A stretch of DNA of 64,000 nt from a virus. Shown here in pieces: positions 9,227-29,970 of the stretch (the stretch's first letter is position 1; each line of letters begins with the position of its first letter). Under the pieces are notes generated by a model. That model was not told the DNA's origin. It saw only the letters and a program-made list of their open reading frames with translations, and did not search any database. The DNA lies in IMG/VR virus record IMGVR_UViG_3300023110_000006. The stretch is one strand, 5' to 3'. Both the position numbers and the translations under genes were made by a program.

Positions 9227-10057
9227 ATGAGAAAAACAAATTACTTAAACAATAAAGACATATTAGCAGAAATACATAAATCAAAAAATACGTTTAATAG
9301 TTATACAGATCCAGAATATGGATATTTTGATATTATTTTACCAGACGTGTCTAAAATAAACATAAGAACTATTGCAGAAGCAAAAAGAAATAAAGCAAAA
9401 AAATTAAGCACACAAGCGTTTGAACAAGCAAAAGCTCAGGGTAAAAAAGTAAAACAAGCAGATTGTGCTATAGATTACAAAAAAATTGACAAAAATGAAT
9501 TAATTTTTAGAATTATGACTTACGAACATATTCCTGAAGAGCCAGGACGTAAGAAAAATCCAAAAACTGTAGCAGATACAAAAGTAAAATTAAATTTTCC
9601 GCCTTTCCAGCACTACAAATTCAATGACGACAATGAATTAATAGTAGTTGGAAAAAGCCATTGGCAAGGAGGCATGGAAAATGGCCATTTTTCACTTACG
9701 CACGGCCAAGCAACAAATAAACTTGCTATGATGTGGATGAAATTGTGTGATCGTTATGCTACAAGAGGTAATGTAAGAGGATATACTTACAATGATGAAA
9801 TGCGAGGACAAGCAATACTGCAATTAGCACAGATTGGATTGCAGTTTGACGAATCTAAAAGTAACAACCCGTTTGCTTACTACACAGCGGCAGTCACAAA
9901 CTCATTTGTACGTGTTATCAACCTTGAAAAACGTAATCAGAACATTAGAGACGACATCCTTGAAATGAATGATATGAACCCAAGTTATACTAGACAGCAT
10001 CAAGGCGAATGGGAAGCAAGTGTTAGACGCGAAAAAGAAGCGGCAGAGGCAAAATAA
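9227..10057 (+). CDS. Late-transcription sigma factor, T4 gp55-like
   Basis: YTYNDEMRGQA...FDESKSNNPFAYYT motif; adjacent to gp47/gp46 as in T4-like phages. Confidence 0.85.
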   Translation: MRKTNYLNNKDILAEIHKSKNTFNSYTDPEYGYFDIILPDVSKINIRTIAEAKRNKAKKLSTQAFEQAKAQGKKVKQADCAIDYKKIDKNELIFRIMTYEHIPEEPGRKKNPKTVADTKVKLNFPPFQHYKFNDDNELIVVGKSHWQGGMENGHFSLTHGQATNKLAMMWMKLCDRYATRGNVRGYTYNDEMRGQAILQLAQIGLQFDESKSNNPFAYYTAAVTNSFVRVINLEKRNQNIRDDILEMNDMNPSYTRQHQGEWEASVRREKEAAEAK

Positions 10058-10116: not shown

Positions 10117-11127
10117 ATGTTTAAGAAAGCGGCTGTCTTTACAGATATCCATTTTGGCCTTAAAGGCAATAGTAAGGTTCACAACGATGATTGTGAAAGA
10201 TTTATAGACTGGTACATAGAACGTGCAAAAGAGCACGGTTGTGAAACTGGTATATTTTGTGGTGATTGGCACCACAACAGGAATAGTCTTAATCTTACAA
10301 CTATGGATGCTACTATACGTTGTTTAGAAAAACTTGGACAAGCATTTGAAAATTTTTATATGTTTGTTGGCAATCACGATTTGTACTACAAAGACAAACG
10401 TGATGTAAGTTCAACAGAGTTTGCAAGGCATATTCCAGGTATTACAGTAGTAGAAAATTTTACTGAAATTGAAGATGTAGCACTTGTTCCTTGGTTAGTT
10501 GGAGACGAGTGGCAAAAAATACAAAAATGTAAAGCCAAATATATGTTTGGTCATTTTGAATTACCTCATTTTTATATGAATGCTATGGTGCAAATGCCAG
10601 ATCATGGTGATTTGAAAGCAGAACACTTTGTAAATCAAGAGTATGTGTTTAGCGGACATTTTCATAAACGTCAACGACAAGGAAAAATACATTATCTGGG
10701 TAATGCATTTCCGCACAACTATGCAGATGCATGGGATGACAAACGCGGAATGATGGTGCTTGATAGAGAAAACAACGAAGAGCCTGTGTACATTGACTGG
10801 GAAGATTGTCCAAAATACAGAACAACTACATTAAGCAAACTTCTAGACCCACAATCAGATGTTATCAAAGCTAATATGTATCTGCGTGTTACTATTGACG
10901 TTCCAATTAGCTACGAAGAAGCAAGTTTTATTAAAGAAACTTATGTAAACAATTATGGATGTAGAGAAATAACACTAATTCCTGAAAAACAAATGGAAGA
11001 AATTAGTACAAACTTAGATATTACTAAGTTTGAAAGTGTTGATCAAATTGTTTCAAAAGAAATTGAAGCTATTGAAAGTGAACAATTTAATAAAAAAATG
11101 TTACTAGACATATACAACGAGTTATAA
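10117..11127 (+). CDS. Recombination endonuclease subunit gp47 (Mre11/SbcD-like)
   Basis: Metallophosphoesterase motifs DIHFG, GD, GNHD and GHFH. Confidence 0.92.
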   Translation: MFKKAAVFTDIHFGLKGNSKVHNDDCERFIDWYIERAKEHGCETGIFCGDWHHNRNSLNLTTMDATIRCLEKLGQAFENFYMFVGNHDLYYKDKRDVSSTEFARHIPGITVVENFTEIEDVALVPWLVGDEWQKIQKCKAKYMFGHFELPHFYMNAMVQMPDHGDLKAEHFVNQEYVFSGHFHKRQRQGKIHYLGNAFPHNYADAWDDKRGMMVLDRENNEEPVYIDWEDCPKYRTTTLSKLLDPQSDVIKANMYLRVTIDVPISYEEASFIKETYVNNYGCREITLIPEKQMEEISTNLDITKFESVDQIVSKEIEAIESEQFNKKMLLDIYNEL

Positions 11128-12900
11128 ATGCTAAAAATAAAAGATTTAACAGTAAAGAATTTTATGAGTGTGGGTAATCAAACCCAAGCTGTTGATTTTA
11201 ACAAACAACAACTAACACTCGTGCTTGGTGAAAACTTAGATCAAGGAGGTGATGATTCTGGATCACGTAACGGTACAGGCAAAACTACAATAATCAATGC
11301 ATTATCGTATGCACTGTATGGCCAAGCATTGACCAACATCAAACGGAACAATCTTATTAATAAGACTAATTCTAAAGGGATGTTGGTCACCCTACATTTT
11401 GAGAAAGATGGACAAGACTACAGAATTGAGCGCGGACGCTCTCCCAATGTTTTGAAATTCTTTATCAATAATGAAGAGCAAGAACTAATTGATGAATCTC
11501 AAGGTGACAGCCGCAAGACCCAAGAGACTATCAATAGCTTGCTAGGTATGAGTCACGATATGTTTAAACATGTCGTGGCTCTTAATACCTATACTGAACC
11601 TTTTTTATCATTGCGGCAAAATGATCAACGTGCAATTATTGAACAACTTTTAGGCATTACAATACTAACTGAAAAAGCAGAAATACTTAAAGAACAGATC
11701 AAACAAACAAAAGATGCAATTACGGAAGAAACTGCAAAAATTACAGGTATACAAACTGCTAACGAAAGAGTACAAAGTACTATCACTAGTTTACAAGGAA
11801 CACAACGGGCTTGGCAAGCAAAGAAAAAAGCAGATGAAGAAAAACTTGCACAATCAATTGACGAACTAGAACATTTAGATATAGACAAAGAATTAGATGC
11901 ACATGAAAAACTAGCCAATTGGACAGAAATGAACAATGCTATTATGGCTCTTAACAAAGAAAAAAGCACACTAGAGAGTGCATTACTACGTGCTAACAAG
12001 TCTGTGGAAAAAGCAGAAAAAGACATCGCAAATCTAGAAGATGCTACTTGTTATACATGTGGACAAGCACTACATGATGATAAAAAAGCTGAATTAGAGA
12101 CACGTAAAACTAAAGAACTAGAAGATGCACTTGCATACCAAACAGAAGTAGCAGACAAACTTGAAGATGTTGTTAAAGGACTAAATGAAATTGGTGATAT
12201 TAACGGAAGACCTAACACATTTTACGAAAGTGCAAAAGAAGCATATGAGCATAGACAGAATGTTGATAGCTTAAAACAAGCATTAGAAAACAAAACCAAC
12301 GAAGATGATCCGTATGCAGAGCAAATTAAAGAATTAGAAACAACTGCACTACAAGAAATAGATTGGCAGGCTGTAAACACACTAGATACATTTAAAGAAC
12401 ACCAAGAATTTTTATTAAAATTACTGACAAACAAAGATAGTTTTATACGTAAGAAAATTATTGATCAGAATCTTGCATATTTGAACAATAGACTTACACA
12501 TTATTTAGATAAACTAGGACTTCCTCATCAAGTTGAATTCCAAAATGATTTAAATGTACAAATTACACAACTTGGACAAGACTTAGACTTTGATAACTTG
12601 AGTCGAGGTGAGAGAAATAGACTTATACTTGGTATGAGCTTTTCATTCCGAGATGTATGGGAAAGTTTGTATCAAAATATTAACTTGTTGTTTATTGATG
12701 AGCTTATTGATAGTGGTATGGACACAGCTGGTGTAGAAAGTTCATTAGCAGTAATCAAGAAAATGGGTAGAGAATTACAGAAAAATGTATTCCTCATCTC
12801 ACACAAAGATGAACTTGTAGGTAGAGTAAATCATGTTATGAAAGTTATTAAAGAAAACGGATTTACATCGTATGAAAATGATATAGAGATAGTAGAATGA
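11128..12900 (+). CDS. Recombination ATPase subunit gp46 (Rad50/SbcC-like)
   Basis: Walker A NGTGKTT, zinc hook CYTCGQ, signature LSRGE, Walker B FIDE, ISH. Confidence 0.93.
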   Translation: MLKIKDLTVKNFMSVGNQTQAVDFNKQQLTLVLGENLDQGGDDSGSRNGTGKTTIINALSYALYGQALTNIKRNNLINKTNSKGMLVTLHFEKDGQDYRIERGRSPNVLKFFINNEEQELIDESQGDSRKTQETINSLLGMSHDMFKHVVALNTYTEPFLSLRQNDQRAIIEQLLGITILTEKAEILKEQIKQTKDAITEETAKITGIQTANERVQSTITSLQGTQRAWQAKKKADEEKLAQSIDELEHLDIDKELDAHEKLANWTEMNNAIMALNKEKSTLESALLRANKSVEKAEKDIANLEDATCYTCGQALHDDKKAELETRKTKELEDALAYQTEVADKLEDVVKGLNEIGDINGRPNTFYESAKEAYEHRQNVDSLKQALENKTNEDDPYAEQIKELETTALQEIDWQAVNTLDTFKEHQEFLLKLLTNKDSFIRKKIIDQNLAYLNNRLTHYLDKLGLPHQVEFQNDLNVQITQLGQDLDFDNLSRGERNRLILGMSFSFRDVWESLYQNINLLFIDELIDSGMDTAGVESSLAVIKKMGRELQKNVFLISHKDELVGRVNHVMKVIKENGFTSYENDIEIVE

Positions 12901-13163
12901 GTAAAGATGTAGTTGTATCAAACTGTTTAGGTGAAGAAGCAACTCCTATAGATCGCCTCTATGGCGATTTGCACGGAAAATATTTTGTTGTACAAAAAGA
13001 CTTTACACATTACAAAGGCAAAATTCATAAAAAAGGCACACTAGTAAAAGGACTTGACGGCAATAGGTTTAGAAGCCATTGTTTTGTAACAGATGATAAC
13101 CGTTGGTTTGACCGTTGTGGTATGCCAATAGCAAAACCTTCTAATTTAGTGAACGATGAGTGA
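12897..13163 (+). CDS. Hypothetical protein (88 aa)
   Basis: ATGA overlap with gp46; overlaps the next gene. Confidence 0.6.
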   Translation: MSKDVVVSNCLGEEATPIDRLYGDLHGKYFVVQKDFTHYKGKIHKKGTLVKGLDGNRFRSHCFVTDDNRWFDRCGMPIAKPSNLVNDE

Positions 13164-13374
13164 TATAACAGACGACATACATGACCAATTGACAAAGGCA
13201 TACTTAGAATACTTCAAGGCAAATGAAAAGTTTGAAGCACGTAACTCAGTGAGAACGCACAAAGAAGTACGAAGATGGTTAAGAACTATCCGTACTTTAG
13301 CTAAAACACGGATGGAAGAGATTCATGTGCATCATAACACAACTCGAAAAACCAAATCAGACGTAGATTCTTAA
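13156..13374 (+). CDS. Hypothetical protein (72 aa, helical and basic)
   Basis: Overlapping ORF in the same operon with plausible composition. Confidence 0.6.
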   Translation: MSDITDDIHDQLTKAYLEYFKANEKFEARNSVRTHKEVRRWLRTIRTLAKTRMEEIHVHHNTTRKTKSDVDS

Positions 13375-13394
13375 TAGGCCAGGGTAAGTACCAC

Positions 13395-13829
13395 ATGCAA
13401 TGGACTTATCAAGGAAAACAAGTGACAGAAATACCAGAAGGTATTGAAGGATTTGTTTACTTGATAACAAATCTTACAAATAATAAAAAGTATATAGGCA
13501 AAAAACTAGCAAAGTTTAAAAAAACCCGTCCTCCATTAAAAGGACGGAAAAATAAACGCAGATCTAAGGTAGAATCAGATTGGAGAGACTATTGGGGATC
13601 TTCAGATAAACTAATAGCAGACGTAGAACAACTAGGCCAAGACAAATTTAGCAGGGAAATACTGTATTATTGTAAAAGTAGAGGCGAATTATCATATTTA
13701 GAGGCTAAAGAACAGTTTGCCCGTGAAGTATTGTTGAGTGATGAGTATTATAACGGGATTATTAATGTAAGGGTAGGCGGTTCTAAGATTTTAAGAGAAA
13801 ATTTAAAGGCACACAAGGACACTGTTTGA
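13395..13829 (+). CDS. Stand-alone GIY-YIG (Seg-like) endonuclease
   Basis: GFVYLITN...KYIGKK, LEAKEQF and EYYNG motifs; only 144 aa, with no C-terminal DNA-binding domain. Confidence 0.8.
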   Translation: MQWTYQGKQVTEIPEGIEGFVYLITNLTNNKKYIGKKLAKFKKTRPPLKGRKNKRRSKVESDWRDYWGSSDKLIADVEQLGQDKFSREILYYCKSRGELSYLEAKEQFAREVLLSDEYYNGIINVRVGGSKILRENLKAHKDTV

Positions 13830-14137
13830 TCTAGATAGCTAGATCCACCTTGAGTAGCAGGAAACTGCATCAGAACTGGTGAGTCCAACAGGCTGTATGC
13901 TACGAAAACCCCTTAGCACTAGGAACGAAGCGGGGGATAGCACTTTAATTTATAAAGTGTGATGTCGACGTAGGTTGGGAAAGGTTAGAGCCCAGTAGCA
14001 TAGTCAAATACCTACTTCCGATCTCGGCTGAGCGAACTCACATGAAGTTTTCGAGATGATGGAACCGCTAGTAGGTTCCGTCTGACTAAACAATCTACAT
14101 GAAGTTACAACAATATCACTACGTGATATTGCTTTTT
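13815..14137 (+). ncRNA. Putative highly structured non-coding RNA downstream of the GIY-YIG gene
   Basis: GC-enriched, no convincing ORF, at least 8 helices visible by eye including crossing (pseudoknot) pairings; ends in a hairpin plus T-run. Confidence 0.55.
14111..14137 (+). terminator. Intrinsic terminator-like hairpin
   Basis: CAATATCAC-TAC-GTGATATTG followed by CTTTTT. Confidence 0.55.
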
Positions 14138-14228
14138 AATTAAATAGTTTAGTTTGAGCGCAAGCGAAAACTTATATCTACGAAGTAGATATACTAAATA
14201 CACTTATAAAACGTTTTAGGATGATAAC

Positions 14229-14876
14229 ATGCGTGTAACAGATATTACAGAACAACAAATCAACGAAGCACCAACTAGTAGACTTGGAAATTTCGCCAAA
14301 AAAATAGGTGCAAAAGCCGCAGGTGCTGTAGGTATGTCAGGAACAGCTGGACGACTTGGTGGCGGTGCAGAAGTAGGAACAAAAGCAAACGAATTATACA
14401 AATCACTTGCAAGATGGCAAGGTATTAACGGCAAAAATGATAAAAACATGACAGCGGCTGATGTTAAAGCATGGGCGGCTCAGGACAAAGTTAATGTAAG
14501 CGCAGTTCAAATGCCAAATGGTGTACTTCCTAAAAATAAATTAATGGATATTATGAAAAAAGTTGCGGCTAGTGAATTAACTGGCGGTAACGTAGGTGCA
14601 GAACCGGCATCTAAAGCGCAGGCCACACCGCAGAGCGGTGGTGGAGGAGCTATTAGCAAAGCAATTGACGCCCTACAAAAAACAACAGGTAAGGCTGGTG
14701 TAAACAATACTCCGGGTAATGCAGTTCCTGCATCTGATGAAGCAGGTTCAAAAGCAAATCAACAACCTGCAAACGTTAAAGATTTAAAAAACAAAGAAGG
14801 TATTCCACCTAACATTCAAACTATGTTAGATAAACTTACTCCTACAGAGAAAAAAGCACTTGCAGGAGCAATATAA
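14229..14876 (+). CDS. Hypothetical protein, probable head-internal virion protein
   Basis: Preceded by TAAATA (14195-14200); N-terminal ITE/INE motifs resembling prohead-protease sites; Ala/Gly/Lys-rich. Confidence 0.6.
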   Translation: MRVTDITEQQINEAPTSRLGNFAKKIGAKAAGAVGMSGTAGRLGGGAEVGTKANELYKSLARWQGINGKNDKNMTAADVKAWAAQDKVNVSAVQMPNGVLPKNKLMDIMKKVAASELTGGNVGAEPASKAQATPQSGGGGAISKAIDALQKTTGKAGVNNTPGNAVPASDEAGSKANQQPANVKDLKNKEGIPPNIQTMLDKLTPTEKKALAGAI

Positions 14877-16831
14877 TGCAACTAGGCGAAGTAACAAACT
14901 ATAATTTACGTTCACAAACGATATTAAATGAAAGTTGGCAAGATCTAACAGAAAGTCAACGCTTGTATATAGGCCGTTGGGAAAAAGAATTATGGCCTTT
15001 GTTAGAAGAATACACAAAACAAATTAATGAAGCAACACTAACTGTTGATCAAATTGAAGCAATCTTCAAAGGTGCTGAATCGCAAGCAATGGCTGGCGGT
15101 GACAATAAGAATATCCTTGGCAAAGCAGGATCGGCCGCAGGGGCAGTAGCTAAACTTCCAATTGACATTGCAAAAAAAGTAGATGCAAAAATAAATGAAC
15201 TAGGCAAAGCCGCAAAAAATGCTGGTCCAGTAAAAAACATGGACAAAAAATTTAATGATCTCAAAGCAGACATTATGGCAAACAAGCCAGACAGTAAAGT
15301 TGTACAAGGTATTGTTAAAGTAAGTGACTGGGCAAAAGCAAATCCAGGCAAGGCAAGTATTGCAGTTGGTATTCTAACAGCTATTGCGGCATTCGCAGGT
15401 GGACCAATGGGCGGTGCGGCCGCTGGTTTAATACTACGTTCAACAAATGAATTATTAAAAGGTGAAGATTTATCTTCGGCAATAGGAAAGTCTGTTAAAA
15501 CTGCCGCTTACGGTGCTCTTGCTGGCTGGGCACTTCAAGGTATTGGTGACTGGTTAGAAGGATTGCGATTTGATGCAGTACCTTATGAAAAAGCACCTGG
15601 ACTAACAACTATGGAAGTTGGATTTCAAAAAACTTTAGAAGTTCCGGGATTTAAAGCAGTTGATACACTAGGTAGTATTATAGTTCCAGAAGACCGTGTT
15701 GGAGAATTTACTCAATTACTTGACGCAATGAAAGATGCAACAGCCGCAACAGGTAGCACAACTGATCCTGCGGCACTAGATGCATTTAGTCAACTTAAAA
15801 ACTTTGTAGATGGCTTTGATAAAGGAGAATTTATCAAAGATATGAATCTTGCAAACGAAGTAGCACAAGAAATTGCCGCACAAAATGATGCATTCTTACA
15901 AAACTTAACTGCCGCTAATAGTGCTATTGCCGCAGTTGCACAAGGTAGTATACAAGGTGCAGGAGAAAAAGGTGCATTTAAAATTGGCGGTGACGAAGTT
16001 AAGCCTGGAGATGTTGTAACAAGTGCGGCAGGTAATAAAAAGGTTGCAGGTGTAGATAGTAAAGCAACAACAACTGATCCTAGCAATTTAGCTGGCAGAG
16101 CTAAAATTATGAAAGCGGCAGACGAATCAGTTGATATGGAAACAGAATTTGAACGTTTCTTAGCAGAAGCTGGAGTAATGGACAAAATTAAATCTGGTGT
16201 CAAATCAGCCGCTGGCGCAGTAGCAGGCGGTGCAAAAGCTGTTGGTAAAGAATTAGGTAACAAAGTTACATACAACAAACTTATGAAACAGTGGAAAGGA
16301 GCAGGGGAACCTGCCGACACTGCAAGTATTATGAATATATTACAAGATGCTGGACTAACTAACGACCAAATTGCAAACATAGGACAGGAAGCCAAAGTAG
16401 ATCTTGGTAAGCCTAGTGAGCAACCTAAAGCAAGTGAACCGGCAACAGCAAGTGAACCAGCACCAAGTGGTGAACAACCATCAAACACAGCAACCCAACC
16501 AACAGGAGATACTAAAGTGGAACCATCAGAAATCCAAAAAGGTGATACAAGAGAAGTAAACGGAAAAACTTACAAATGGATGGGAGCTCTTTGGGTAGAC
16601 ACAGCAACAAACAAACCTATTGGAATTTTGCCTTCAATGAAAGCAGGACTTCCTAATCCAAAATTAGATCCTATTATACAAGCCGCTAAAAACGATCCAG
16701 AACTAGCAAAATTAATAAAAGCACAAGTGACTTCAAAAGGTGTAGAAGCAGGCTCAGCAGGCGCACAACAAGCCGCACAAGCTGGTGTACAAGGTACTGA
16801 AAAACTTGATGCAAAAGGTGTAAGTACTTAA
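14876..16831 (+). CDS. Hypothetical 651-aa protein, probable internal/ejection protein
   Basis: Coupled to the upstream gene (TAATG); ILNES/INEA/LAEA motifs; Gly-zipper hydrophobic hairpin. Confidence 0.6.
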   Translation: MQLGEVTNYNLRSQTILNESWQDLTESQRLYIGRWEKELWPLLEEYTKQINEATLTVDQIEAIFKGAESQAMAGGDNKNILGKAGSAAGAVAKLPIDIAKKVDAKINELGKAAKNAGPVKNMDKKFNDLKADIMANKPDSKVVQGIVKVSDWAKANPGKASIAVGILTAIAAFAGGPMGGAAAGLILRSTNELLKGEDLSSAIGKSVKTAAYGALAGWALQGIGDWLEGLRFDAVPYEKAPGLTTMEVGFQKTLEVPGFKAVDTLGSIIVPEDRVGEFTQLLDAMKDATAATGSTTDPAALDAFSQLKNFVDGFDKGEFIKDMNLANEVAQEIAAQNDAFLQNLTAANSAIAAVAQGSIQGAGEKGAFKIGGDEVKPGDVVTSAAGNKKVAGVDSKATTTDPSNLAGRAKIMKAADESVDMETEFERFLAEAGVMDKIKSGVKSAAGAVAGGAKAVGKELGNKVTYNKLMKQWKGAGEPADTASIMNILQDAGLTNDQIANIGQEAKVDLGKPSEQPKASEPATASEPAPSGEQPSNTATQPTGDTKVEPSEIQKGDTREVNGKTYKWMGALWVDTATNKPIGILPSMKAGLPNPKLDPIIQAAKNDPELAKLIKAQVTSKGVEAGSAGAQQAAQAGVQGTEKLDAKGVST

Positions 16832-28867: not shown

Positions 28868-28871
28868 TTAT

Positions 28872-28915
28872 ACGTTCAGCCTACGGGCCGGAAGTAGCAT
28901 TAAGCGAAGGAACGC
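28872..28915 (+). ncRNA. Glutamine riboswitch (glnA-motif / glutamine-I class)
   Basis: CGUUC-AGCC(UACG)GGC-CGGAAGUA-GC(AUUAA)GC-GAAG-GAACG matches the P1/P2/E-loop/P3 layout of the glnA RNA as I recall it. Confidence 0.8.
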
Positions 28916-28943
28916 ACCTAAACTTTAACAAAGGGAGGGTGAT

Positions 28944-29153: not shown

Positions 29154-29372
29154 ATAAGCAACAAGAGAGTAATTAACTTTTGTTTTTTAGTGCATCGAAG
29201 AGGCTCTTACCAGAGGGTCGAAGATGGCTAGTTAGGGGTGGTACCCAGGCATGGTTGCAGAAATGCGTTGTGTCACATCGCTCTACCGAGCGGAACTAGG
29301 CGCCCGGGATTCAGACAGGTATCTGCGTCGAAGGGTTGTAGGTGAAACCGAGTCCTACCTAAAATTGCTTAT
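29154..29372 (+). ncRNA. Putative stand-alone structured ncRNA (family not recognised)
   Basis: Own promoter and terminator; 5' AUAAGCAA pairs with 3' UUGCUUAU; GC-rich multi-hairpin core with complementary UACC and GGUA loops. Confidence 0.7.
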
Positions 29373-29423: not shown

Positions 29424-29523
29424 TAAATACTTGTGTCAGGTAGTGTGCCGCGAGGCGGACTTATGGGGAACCAACCCCGTAGCACCTAGAACGTGCATCG
29501 GACTTCTATAAAGGAGAAAACAA
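29424..29523 (+). promoter_or_regulatory. Late promoter plus structured 5' leader
   Basis: TAAATA (29424-29429), three hairpins, possible pseudoknot next to the AAGGAG RBS. Confidence 0.55.
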
Positions 29524-29970
29524 ATGGGAAGACCACTTAATAAAAGATACTTCGGCGAACCAACTGCCGGAGGTAATGAAATCAAATGCGATTTTCATAA
29601 CGGGACAGCAGTTGTTGAAGGACACATTGTTCGTCAAAAAGGTAGTAAGAAATTCGTAGTAGCAGAAATCGGTGCATCAGACACTGAATACACTTGCACA
29701 TTAACAACAGGTAAACTTATGTCAGCACTAGCGGCTGGTGAAATGGGTATCACTATGTTAATGGATGATTCAGAAACATATCAAGTTTCTAAAATCACTG
29801 GACGTAAAGCAACACTAGTTGCTCCAGATGCAACAGGAACAAACGCTTATGACGGCAAGTCAGTAGCTTGGAACTTTGACGCAGATCTAACTGATGGCGG
29901 CGCACAAGTTGAAGAAGCTGGTGATGACGATACAGCAGGCGTTGATGATGACGATTTTGCTAACGCATAA
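29524..29970 (+). CDS. Hypothetical virion structural protein (MGRP-start)
   Basis: Late promoter, strong RBS, followed by a strong hairpin (29979-30002). Confidence 0.65.
   Translation: MGRPLNKRYFGEPTAGGNEIKCDFHNGTAVVEGHIVRQKGSKKFVVAEIGASDTEYTCTLTTGKLMSALAAGEMGITMLMDDSETYQVSKITGRKATLVAPDATGTNAYDGKSVAWNFDADLTDGGAQVEEAGDDDTAGVDDDDFANA

What the first reader, a model, noticed from the sequence alone, without database searches (positions are those of the whole stretch)
13395..14137. Minimal GIY-YIG nuclease joined to a ~310-nt pseudoknotted RNA: candidate ribonucleoprotein or RNA-guided system
Seen in sequence: the 144-aa nuclease has only the catalytic domain plus a basic insert (KKLAKFKKTRPPLKGRKNKRRSK). 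It lacks the C-terminal DNA-recognition modules that GIY-YIG homing endonucleases such as I-TevI use. Dense structure begins at the stop codon: GAUCUAG/CUAGAUC (13828-13845), GCAG-GAAA-CUGC (13857-13868), CACUUUA/UAAAGUG (13941-13959), GUAGGU/ACCUAC (13970-13975/14010-14015), UGGG/CCCA, AUCUCG/CGAGAU, UGAG-CGAA-CUCA and GAUGGAACC/GGUUCCGUC (14058-14082). Two pairings cross these helices: UAUGCUAC/GUAGCAUA (13896-13903/13995-14002) and UAGUCA/UGACUA (14001-14006/14083-14088). ACATGAAGTT occurs twice (14040-14049, 14097-14106), and a terminator-like hairpin follows. Inference: a small nuclease with a large RNA at its 3' end echoes the TnpB/omegaRNA layout, so the RNA may supply specificity or a scaffold. 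It could instead be a ribozyme or an origin RNA.
Basis: partly seen in the sequence, partly recalled or inferred. Interest (0 to 1): 0.8.

Follow-up and report, generated by a model that had tools for sequence, protein, structure and literature searches.

The report
Twin-box phage RNA beside small nuclease
The gene-free stretch behind a small DNA-cutting enzyme gene of this uncultured giant marine phage encodes a real, knotted RNA of about 300 bases that carries the same 7-letter word twice, but the evidence makes it the enzyme's habitual neighbour and not its guide.

Summary
The ORF at 13395-13829 is a 144-aa GIY-YIG nuclease (Pfam PF19835). Bases 13828-14106 fold into a pseudoknotted RNA conserved in more than 230 distinct sequences from uncultured T4-like jumbo phages. 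That includes the long-range helix 13896-13903/13995-14002. UGAG/CUCA and UAGUCA/UGACUA are not supported. GGUUA/UGACU (13983-87/14083-87) fits better than the second of these.

The two ACAUGAA boxes are identical in 79/80 and 103/104 relatives, across 14 variants. No complementary partner was found.

The RNA-guided-nuclease reading is not favoured, for five reasons:
- The whole gp55-gp47-gp46-nuclease-RNA block is syntenic.
- A nuclease clade at 73-76% identity (Melnitz type) lacks the RNA.
- One RNA (L278) has a PD-(D/E)XK nuclease gene instead.
- Nuclease clades and RNA types reassort.
- The basic insert also occurs in homologues without the RNA.

The window RNA has no Rfam match. In sister RNAs the 5' domain is Rfam Polynucleobacter-1 (RF01718), whose function is unknown.

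Three hairpins follow the RNA (14111-14193). Their stems are almost purely Watson-Crick, which looks like a DNA-level signal.

The function is unresolved. My leading conjecture is an R-loop or primer RNA. This scan has found the same family before on other DNA.

The parts
13395..13829 (+). 144-aa stand-alone GIY-YIG nuclease gene (PF19835 / phrog_447), catalytic domain only, with a basic insert
   Evidence: AF2 model pLDDT 87.5. Best fold match is the I-TevI catalytic domain, Z 8.5, rmsd 2.7 A over 82 residues. Invariant residues Y22, Y33, G35, E88 and N120.
13828..13845 (+). First hairpin of the RNA (GAUCUAG/CUAGAUC). It overlaps the TGA stop codon.
   Evidence: 7 pairs, 2 of them with changes on both sides.
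13846..13881 (+). Helix CACC/GGUG (13846-49/13878-81) enclosing the variable hairpin GCAG-GAAA-CUGC (13857-68)
   Evidence: AU, GC and UA seen at one pair, CG and UA at another.
13892..13941 (+). Helix GCUGU/AUAGC (13892-96/13937-41) and helix CCCC/GGGG (13909-12/13932-35), around the conserved loop with GGAACGAAGC (13922-31)
   Evidence: Variants seen: CUCU/AGAG, CCGU/ACGG, CUCC/GGAG, CCCUA/UAGGG and CUUAAA/UUUAAG.
13896..13903 (+). 5' strand of the long-range pseudoknot helix. It pairs with 13995-14002.
   Evidence: cognate -11.5 against non-cognate -6.2 kcal/mol, more than 10 compensating classes. Also.
13941..13959 (+). Variable-length hairpin CACUUUA/UAAAGUG
   Evidence: always a hairpin, from a minimal stem to about 90 nt.
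13970..14015 (+). Invariant core. GUAGGU/ACCUAC encloses UGGG/CCCA (13976-79/13991-94), the loop AAAGGUUAGAG, and the 3' strand of the pseudoknot (13995-14002).
   Evidence: 100% and 98.9% of cells paired. Compensated changes UA to CG, and UA to GC.
13983..13987 (+). Loop bases GGUUA, proposed to pair with UGACU at 14083-87 (second pseudoknot).
   Evidence: 5 pairs, 100% paired, changes on one side only. No compensatory proof.
14021..14057 (+). Helix AUCUCG/CGAGAU, enclosing AACUC plus box 1
   Evidence: UCUUG/CAAGA and GUCUA/UAGAC variants.
14040..14047 (+). Twin box 1 (ACAUGAAG), preceded by the invariant AACUC
14058..14082 (+). Hairpin GAUGGAACC/GGUUCCGUC between the boxes
   Evidence: 98.9% paired, many G-U pairs, one CG to UA compensation. 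The exact 25-mer occurs in 18 viral contigs.
14097..14104 (+). Twin box 2 (ACAUGAAG), preceded by the invariant AAUCU
   Evidence: identical to box 1 in 79/80 and 103/104 relatives.
14111..14131 (+). Hairpin T1. It looks like a terminator in this window. Its loop reads cGUAg on the - strand.
   Evidence: stems 96% Watson-Crick, with 26 G-T against 34 A-C, so no strand bias. The loop is CTTCG in 138/214 relatives, which reads cGAAg on the - strand.
14151..14172 (+). Hairpin T2. Covarying stem AGUUU/AAACU around the conserved loop GAGCGCAAGCGA (a GC-GNNA-GC mini-hairpin flanked by GA on each side).
   Evidence: 180 stems, with 835 Watson-Crick, 6 G-T and 1 A-C pair. Many stem sequences.
14173..14193 (+). 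Hairpin T3 with a cGAAg loop, followed by a late-promoter-like TAAATA (14195-14200)
   Evidence: 1465 Watson-Crick, 4 G-T and 7 A-C pairs. Loops cGUAg, cGAAg and cGCAg. Coordinates.

Best explanation
Bases 13828 to about 14106 are the gene of an independent structured non-coding RNA, the 'twin-box' RNA. It lies on the + strand at the end of the gp55-gp47-gp46-nuclease replication and recombination gene block of an uncultured jumbo T4-like phage.

Shown here:
- The RNA folds into a compact core of two or three crossing helices. This core holds two identical single-stranded 7-nt boxes about 57 nt apart, on either side of a stable hairpin.
- The GIY-YIG gene is a conserved neighbour. It belongs to a family that also lives without this RNA.

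Inferred (about 0.6): the RNA works by Watson-Crick pairing through the two boxes with a partner that necessarily changes together with them.

Leading conjecture (about 0.2-0.25): the partner is the RNA's own template DNA strand. One box of the transcript could then hold on to the DNA at the other box and stabilise an R-loop. The three DNA-type hairpins just downstream (14111-14193) would serve as single-strand signals for priming or clamp loading, as at the ColE1 origin. This step is not shown.
For: Real RNA on the + strand.
- Compensatory changes occur in at least 9 helices.
- The RNA body carries many G-U pairs and almost no A-C pairs.
- More than 230 distinct sequences were recovered from viral contigs.
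- In 185,579 species genomes there are only 3 hits. All three are MAG contigs carrying the same phage block.

Independence from the nuclease.
- The block is syntenic.
- The Melnitz-type nuclease is 76% identical while gp46 is only 26% identical, and Melnitz has no RNA.
- L278 has the RNA but no GIY-YIG gene.
- Genes are inserted between nuclease and RNA in some loci.
- RNA-type labels need 28 changes on the nuclease tree, and at least 7-8 of them are forced by well-supported branches.

Twin boxes.
- They are identical in 79/80 and 103/104 relatives, with 14 variants.
- Mixed states are seen in only about 1% of sequences, far fewer than the G-U intermediates in the RNA's own helices.
- No complementary site occurs at any consistent place within about 10 kb, nor in records of 65-98 kb.

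DNA-type hairpins. The T1-T3 stems covary yet are about 96-99% Watson-Crick, with G-T about equal to A-C. Their loops are of the cGNAg / GCGNNAGC type, on both strands.
Against: - There is no transcript evidence.
- The 5' and 3' ends of the RNA are unknown.
- In this window T1 looks like an ordinary intrinsic terminator right after box 2. That fits a released RNA better than a persistent hybrid.
- GC skew turns at about 9 kb, where gene orientation flips, and not at 14 kb.
- A partner in the host, or elsewhere in a roughly 360-kb genome, cannot be excluded.
- Co-occurrence with the nuclease in 214/215 loci is still compatible with a functional link.
- The R-loop idea was also reached by earlier agents of this scan, so it is not independent support.
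Confidence: 0.45

Rival explanations
1. Ribonucleoprotein or RNA-guided nuclease. The RNA binds the 144-aa GIY-YIG protein and supplies target specificity or a scaffold, with the twin boxes acting as two short guides.
For: - Adjacent, on the same strand, in 214/215 testable loci, down to 50% protein identity.
- The RNA starts at the stop codon.
- The protein has no DNA-binding domain and carries a basic insert.
- The boxes are variable segments set in conserved structure.
Against: - Synteny of the whole block explains the adjacency.
- The family, including the basic insert, exists without the RNA in Melnitz, S-SRM01, phiM12 and Bellamy.
- Genes are inserted between nuclease and RNA, and the RNA occurs without the GIY-YIG gene in L278.
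- One well-supported nuclease clade carries both RNA body types and different boxes.
- Seven nucleotides give too little specificity, and the phage does not avoid the word in its own DNA: 11 occurrences against about 14.6 expected.
Confidence: 0.08
2. Self-processing ribozyme. The pseudoknotted core cuts or joins the RNA at the two identical boxes, for example releasing or circularising the roughly 57-nt segment between them. The boxes must then match the same internal guide.
For: - Long invariant single-stranded stretches and crossing helices are typical of catalytic cores.
- The two identical sites each follow a similar pentamer, AACUC and AAUCU.
Against: - No Rfam ribozyme or intron model matches, even at E up to 10.
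- No internal sequence complementary to the boxes covaries with them.
- The element interrupts no gene.
Confidence: 0.1
3. Cis-acting end-of-operon element. This would be a 3' structure that stabilises the early or middle transcript, or sets how much transcription reads through T1-T3 into the late genes starting at 14229.
For: - It lies between the last early gene and a late-promoter-like TAAATA.
- In this window a terminator-like hairpin follows box 2.
- The sister motif RF01718 was filed by its discoverers as possibly cis-regulatory (PMC2864571, table).
Against: - About 300-420 nt with several pseudoknots and invariant loops is far more than a stabiliser needs.
- The T-run after T1 is not kept in many relatives.
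- The T1-T3 stems show no RNA-type strand bias.
- This reading does not explain why the boxes are identical.
Confidence: 0.12
4. Trans-acting regulatory or decoy RNA. Its two identical seeds would pair with, or mimic, a host or phage RNA located outside the DNA I could search.
For: - Two exposed identical 7-nt words on a rigid scaffold.
- The variants differ between related phages, as host-adapted seeds would.
- No partner was found in cis.
Against: - Near-absolute identity, with about 1% mixed states, is stricter than RNA-RNA seeds need, because G-U pairs are tolerated there.
- No target was identified.
- The hosts are unknown.
Confidence: 0.2

Closest known systems
Polynucleobacter-1 RNA motif (Rfam RF01718; Weinberg et al. 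2010, PMC2864571)
   Same: In sister phages with AGAURAU boxes, the first roughly 140 nt of the RNA behind the same nuclease gene score 55-112 bits against RF01718, whose gathering score is 37. The motif GGA(A)CGAAG is shared. The 3' twin-box module of those loci is recognised by my model of the window's 3' domain, with E down to 3e-7. RF01718 also has no known function.
   Different: The window RNA itself does not match RF01718 even at E up to 10. RF01718 covers only a 5' domain. It does not cover the pseudoknotted core, the twin boxes or the downstream hairpins. In my searches of the held papers I found no description of those.
Seg-type free-standing GIY-YIG homing endonucleases of T4-like phages, and the I-TevI catalytic domain
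   Same: Pfam PF19835 SegE_GIY-YIG at E 1.5e-35. The fold is closest to the I-TevI catalytic domain, Z 8.5. Transfer between distant phages is evident: 76% identity to Melnitz against 26% for gp46.
   Different: There is no C-terminal DNA-binding domain. Within this phage lineage the gene sits at a fixed, syntenic position rather than being sporadically inserted. No cleavage site is known.
OMEGA systems (TnpB / IscB with omega-RNA, HEARO)
   Same: A small nuclease gene with a large structured RNA at its 3' end, on the same strand.
   Different: The catalytic fold is different (GIY-YIG, not RuvC/HNH). There are no transposon ends and no terminal guide of 12-20 nt. Protein and RNA are not strictly co-inherited. 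No HEARO or other Rfam match.
ColE1 origin: RNA II primer with an rG stretch pairing to the template dC stretch, followed by primosome assembly hairpins (own knowledge; Masukata and Tomizawa 1990)
   Same: A folded RNA that contains the same word twice, so that the upstream copy can pair with the template DNA at the downstream copy. Single-strand-type DNA hairpins lie just beyond.
   Different: No replication start, RNase H processing or R-loop is shown here. The spacing is 57 nt, against about 245 nt in ColE1. There is no sequence relation.
Large orphan 'ornate' RNAs often carried by phages (GOLLD, ROOL; PMC12286853)
   Same: A large, multiply pseudoknotted, phage-borne RNA found mainly in metagenomes, with unknown function.
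   Different: It is smaller (about 300-420 nt). There is no Rfam match to those families. The twin-box direct-repeat covariation has no counterpart that I know of in them.

Membership tests
Pfam PF19835 SegE_GIY-YIG / PHROG 447 small GIY-YIG nucleases | Profile match above the curated cut-off | tested here: met
   122.6 bits against a cut-off of 25. phrog_447 at E 2.5e-38, covering 9-142 of 148 profile positions.
Pfam PF19835 SegE_GIY-YIG / PHROG 447 small GIY-YIG nucleases | GIY-YIG fold and conserved catalytic positions (two Tyr, Arg, Glu, Asn) | tested here: met
   AF2 pLDDT 87.5. I-TevI catalytic domain Z 8.5, PD-T4-3 Z 7.3, T4 EndoII Z 5.2, UvrC Z 5.1. Y22, Y33, E88 and N120 are invariant and R55/R56/R87 nearly so. 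Which of these residues are catalytic is inferred, not assayed.
Seg-type free-standing homing endonuclease | C-terminal DNA-binding module linked to the catalytic domain | tested here: not met
   The Pfam domain ends at residue 123 of 144, and the tail is one short helix of low confidence.
Seg-type free-standing homing endonuclease | Sporadic presence between conserved genes, with horizontal spread | tested here: inconclusive
   The position is fixed within this lineage. Against that, a 76%-identical copy sits after nrdB in the distant phage Melnitz, and alleles reassort.
OMEGA-type RNA-guided nuclease (TnpB/IscB with omega-RNA) | A variable guide segment of roughly 12-20 nt at one end of a conserved scaffold | tested here: not met
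   The only variable words inside conserved structure are two internal 7-nt boxes, with 14 variants.
OMEGA-type RNA-guided nuclease (TnpB/IscB with omega-RNA) | Protein and RNA inherited as one unit | tested here: not met
   Nuclease clades occur without the RNA, the RNA occurs without the nuclease, and there are at least 7-8 supported switches of RNA type on the nuclease tree.
Rfam RF01718 Polynucleobacter-1 | Covariance-model score at or above the gathering score (37 bits) | tested here: not met
   No match in the window at E up to 10. The threshold is met at 55-112 bits by the 5' domains of sister RNAs in L218, L222, L228, L237 and L264.
Group I intron / known self-cleaving ribozymes (Rfam models) | Covariance-model match; for an intron, interruption of a host gene | tested here: not met
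   No such family is listed at E up to 10. The element lies between a stop codon and the next gene's promoter.
ColE1-type primer RNA / R-loop origin | An upstream RNA segment identical to a downstream transcribed word, hence complementary to the template there | tested here: met
   Twin boxes at 14040-47 and 14097-104, with identity kept in 79/80 and 103/104 relatives. This is a sequence property only.
ColE1-type primer RNA / R-loop origin | A persistent RNA-DNA hybrid, processing to a primer, and a replication start at the site | not testable with these tools
   No read data could be obtained. GC skew is uninformative.
Intrinsic (rho-independent) terminator, for hairpin T1 | A G+C-rich RNA hairpin followed by a U-run, conserved as an RNA | tested here: inconclusive
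   The consensus scan finds one at 14111-14131 with CTTTTT. In relatives the T-run is often missing, and the stems show G-T about equal to A-C.

The most novel reading that the evidence does not exclude
The twin-box RNA is a dedicated origin or R-loop RNA of a large group of jumbo T4-like phages. One box of the transcript pairs with the template DNA at the other box and locks an RNA-DNA hybrid. The adjacent cGNAg hairpins, extruded from the displaced or unwound strands, then recruit priming or clamp loading, for replication or for clamp-dependent late transcription from the promoter just downstream. The neighbouring small nuclease (GIY-YIG, or PD-(D/E)XK in L278) may process this structure.
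Probability: 0.2. Interest if true: 0.85.

Novelty: new variant of a known kind. Interest (0 to 1): 0.55.

Why it matters
If the RNA is what it appears to be, hundreds of abundant, uncultured aquatic jumbo phages carry a conserved RNA of 300-420 nt whose function is unknown. Part of it was catalogued in 2010 as an orphan motif.

Its defining trait is two direct repeats that mutate together. That is not how RNA helices evolve. It points to a partner or mechanism not yet described for phage RNAs: pairing with its own DNA, templated copying, or a dual-seed regulator.

The family gives a concrete, testable handle on how T4-like jumbo phages start replication or switch to late transcription.

It is also a useful caution. 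A small nuclease next to a big RNA looks like TnpB with its omega-RNA, but here the adjacency is inherited gene order.

Tried and rejected
- Rfam at the gathering score and at E up to 10 over the element: no family.
- tRNA and tmRNA scan: none.
- blastn of the RNA against 50,697 phage records: no match.
- The whole genome of the window is not held.
There is therefore no expression evidence, and read laying was not used.
- PDB sequence searches with the protein and with a profile: nothing relevant. Foldseek alone was weak. VIA-align gave the GIY-YIG matches.
- Partner for the boxes. A reverse complement, with or without G-U, was sought within 1.5 kb, in whole loci, in the 64-kb window and in two records of 65-98 kb. 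Only chance-level hits appeared, plus one conserved gp46 codon string that does not follow the box variant.
- Self-avoidance of the box word in the phage genome: not seen.
- The boxes as start codons or as a translational bypass: the ATG is lost in several variants, no reading frame runs through, and the spacing is not a multiple of three.
- Palindromic kissing of the boxes: not kept across variants (read).
- GC-skew signal of an origin at the element: none. The turn at 9 kb follows gene orientation.
- RNAalifold's alternative GUAGGU/AUCUAC pairing: broken in the two sequences where ACCUAC compensates.
- The R1 model in the Melnitz genome: no hit, though the model is tuned to the window's subtype.
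- Complex prediction was not used. It handles protein partners only, and no protein-protein claim is made.
Full report
WHAT THE WINDOW IS

The window is a piece of an uncultured T4-like phage. It encodes the late sigma factor gp55 (9227-10057) and the gp47/gp46 recombination nuclease (10117-12900). No cultured phage is close: over 10117-16831 the best DNA matches reach about 65% in gp46/47 only. Related contigs of 98 kb and 65 kb are rated 27% and 18% complete, which implies genomes of about 360 kb.

THE PROTEIN

The ORF 13395-13829 gives 144 aa. It matches Pfam PF19835 SegE_GIY-YIG (E 1.5e-35, residues 3-123) and PHROG 447, a family whose profile is 148 positions long. A model built from 18 relatives is confident (pLDDT 87.5). 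It superposes best on the I-TevI catalytic domain (Z 8.5, rmsd 2.7 A over 82 residues), then on PD-T4-3, T4 EndoII and UvrC. Tyr22, Tyr33, Glu88 and Asn120 are invariant.

THE RNA IS REAL

Folding energy alone is unremarkable (z -2.24), so I relied on relatives.
- A search with the protein returned 80 viral loci.
- The exact 25-mer of one hairpin occurs in 18 contigs.
- In all there are 234 distinct sequences.

Compensatory changes support these helices:
- the first hairpin, 13828-45;
- helix CACC/GGUG, 13846-49/13878-81;
- GCUGU/AUAGC;
- CCCC/GGGG around the conserved GGAACGAAGC loop;
- GUAGGU/ACCUAC, UGGG/CCCA and GAUGGAACC/GGUUCCGUC (99.4% of cells paired, 3 pairs with changes on both sides, against 27-45% paired when the partner is slid);
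- AUCUCG/CGAGAT.

The long-range helix 13896-903/13995-14002 crosses GUAGGU/ACCUAC. It exists in more than ten sequence versions, among them GCUAC/GUAGC, GUACA/UGUAC, GCUCC/GGAGC, GUUCA/UGAAC, ACACA/UGUGU and ACUCC/GGAGU. Cognate strands pair at -11.5 kcal/mol on average, against -6.2 for strands from different classes.

The body helices carry many G-U pairs and almost no A-C pairs. The functional strand is therefore the + strand, read as RNA.

UGAG/CUCA has an invariant 3' arm and a 5' arm that varies without compensation. The 5' arm of UAGUCA/UGACUA is not conserved. UGACU can pair instead with the invariant loop GGUYA (13983-87). That pairing holds in every sequence, but only changes on one side are seen.

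THE TWIN BOXES

ACAUGAA occurs after AACUC (14040) and after AAUCU (14097). I located the boxes by their flanks, not by their identity. On that basis the two 7-mers are identical in 79 of 80 representatives, with 10 variants. In the second subtype the one free position agrees in 103 of 104. Fourteen variants are seen in all. Even divergent members that my model only just detects keep the rule.

Direct repeats that change together are not a helix, so I looked for a third, complementary strand. None lies at a consistent place within 1.5 kb, within whole loci, in this 64-kb window, or in records of 65-98 kb. The phage does not avoid the word in its own DNA.

Mixed states, where the boxes differ by one transition, are seen in about 1% of sequences. 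That is much rarer than the G-U intermediates in the RNA's own helices. It suggests a reader that tells A from G and C from U, such as DNA pairing, a protein or a copying step.

IS THE NUCLEASE THE RNA'S PARTNER?

For a link: every RNA with enough upstream sequence has the GIY-YIG gene upstream on the same strand. That is 107/107 in one subtype and 107/108 in the other, down to 50% protein identity.

Against a link:
- The entire block gp55-gp47-gp46-(orf72)-nuclease-RNA is collinear in these contigs, so neighbourhood is inherited.
- The isolate Methylophilales phage Melnitz carries a nuclease 76% identical to the window's, placed after its nrdB gene. Its gp46 is only 26% identical, and it has neither the RNA nor a gap for it. 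Contigs L064, L072, L076 and L080 form one well-supported clade with it (99% support), nested among RNA-adjacent nucleases. Of these, L072, L076 and L080 also share Melnitz's downstream sequence.
- Homologues in phages S-SRM01, phiM12 and Bellamy are packed between other genes. They keep the basic insert, so the insert is not an adaptation to this RNA.
- ORFs of 237-276 aa sit between nuclease and RNA in L230, L253, L259 and L322. L278 has the RNA but no GIY-YIG gene. Between its gp46 and the RNA lie a radical-SAM gene, a 170-aa PF24608 PD-(D/E)XK nuclease and an unknown ORF.
- On a tree of 220 nucleases the RNA-type label needs 28 changes, and at least 7-8 are forced by well-supported branches. 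The clade nearest the window's protein mostly carries the other RNA type, with other boxes. The tree was a quick build from a short protein.

I put the RNA-guided reading at about 0.08.

RELATION TO KNOWN RNAS

The window RNA matches nothing in Rfam 15. In the sister subtype, however, the first roughly 140 nt behind the nuclease gene are Rfam RF01718, Polynucleobacter-1, at 55-112 bits against a gathering score of 37. That is an orphan motif from Weinberg et al. 2010, listed there as possibly cis-regulatory and found in Burkholderiales and in fresh water and estuaries (PMC2864571).

My model of the window's 3' domain finds the twin-box module in those same loci, with E down to 3e-7. Both subtypes share GGA(A)CGAAG. 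The window RNA is therefore an unrecognised variant of a family whose 5' part was catalogued. In my searches of the held papers I found no description of the core, the twin boxes or the downstream hairpins.

The core pattern occurs in only 3 of 185,579 species genomes. All three hits are MAG contigs with the same phage block.

WHAT FOLLOWS THE RNA

Three hairpins, T1 14111-31, T2 14151-72 and T3 14173-93, are conserved across both subtypes. Their stems vary freely yet stay almost purely Watson-Crick:
- T1: 1391 Watson-Crick, 26 G-T, 34 A-C;
- T2: 835, 6 and 1;
- T3: 1465, 4 and 7.

They show no excess of G-T over A-C.

Their loops are cGNAg (T3 on the + strand, T1 on the - strand) and GC-GNNA-GC flanked by GA (T2). 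From my own knowledge, these are the classic very stable DNA mini-hairpin loops. This supports another first-stage note on this window (e1-5732606). It suggests that T1-T3 act as folded DNA. A late-promoter-like TAAATA (14195) and the next gene (14229) follow.

MECHANISM

Shown: an RNA on the + strand with a knotted core, two identical exposed words, and DNA-type hairpins downstream.

Inferred: the words act by strict base pairing with something that must change with them. The simplest such partner is the template DNA of the other box, as in the ColE1 RNA II rG/dC contact. That would make this an R-loop or primer RNA beside single-strand signals.

I give that specific step 0.2-0.25. T1 looks like a terminator in this window, no transcript or replication data exist, and earlier agents' arrival at the same idea is not independent evidence. 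The rivals are a trans-acting dual-seed RNA (0.2), an end-of-operon cis element (0.12), a ribozyme (0.1) and a nuclease RNP (0.08).

VERDICT

The headline interpretation is not favoured. The family has been met before in this scan and is partly present in Rfam. The twin-box rule remains truly unexplained.

Noticed in passing
window 28871-28918, 29160-29368, 29444-29526 (+): Three Rfam families lie in a row, above their gathering scores: Glutamine riboswitch, manA RNA and freshwater-2 RNA. They lie just ahead of the ORF at 29524.
   Followed up: no
window 14111-14193: Three adjacent hairpins with cGNAg / GCGNNAGC-type loops. Their stems covary but are about 96-99% Watson-Crick with no G-T excess, so they look like DNA-level (single-strand) signals rather than RNA helices.
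   Followed up: partly
window 13525-13548 (-): A terminator-like hairpin plus T-run on the minus strand, inside the nuclease ORF. It lies exactly over the codons of the basic insert. It may be chance or an antisense signal.
   Followed up: no
L083, L085, L086, L090, L092, L093, L097, L098 and others: About half of the contigs holding the 25-mer hairpin end within about 300 nt of it, on the RNA's 3' side. Downstream gene content also differs between relatives: the 215-aa and 651-aa ORFs may be present or absent. The RNA seems to border a hypervariable region where assemblies break.
   Followed up: partly
L278 9107-11705 (-): In one relative the GIY-YIG gene is missing. A radical-SAM/SPASM gene, a PF24608 PD-(D/E)XK nuclease and an unknown 343-aa ORF lie between gp46 and the RNA.
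   Followed up: partly
L338, L339, L340 (genome contigs): Contigs of 73-335 kb binned as Crocinitomicaceae and Neomarinimicrobiota MAGs carry the phage gene block (L338 and L340 from gp47/gp46 on; L339 shows only the nuclease, the RNA and the downstream genes). They are probably mis-binned jumbo-phage DNA.
   Followed up: partly
phage records: This small GIY-YIG family (phrog_447) is widely labelled 'NAD synthetase' in GenBank and PHROGs, which looks like a propagated misannotation. In Bellamy and Melnitz it sits right after nrdB, the place that denA (EndoII) holds in T4 (the T4 map is from my own knowledge).
   Followed up: no
window 14229-16831: The two ORFs after the element (215 and 651 aa) are low-complexity and rich in Ala, Gly and Lys. 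They have no Pfam or PHROG match.
   Followed up: no
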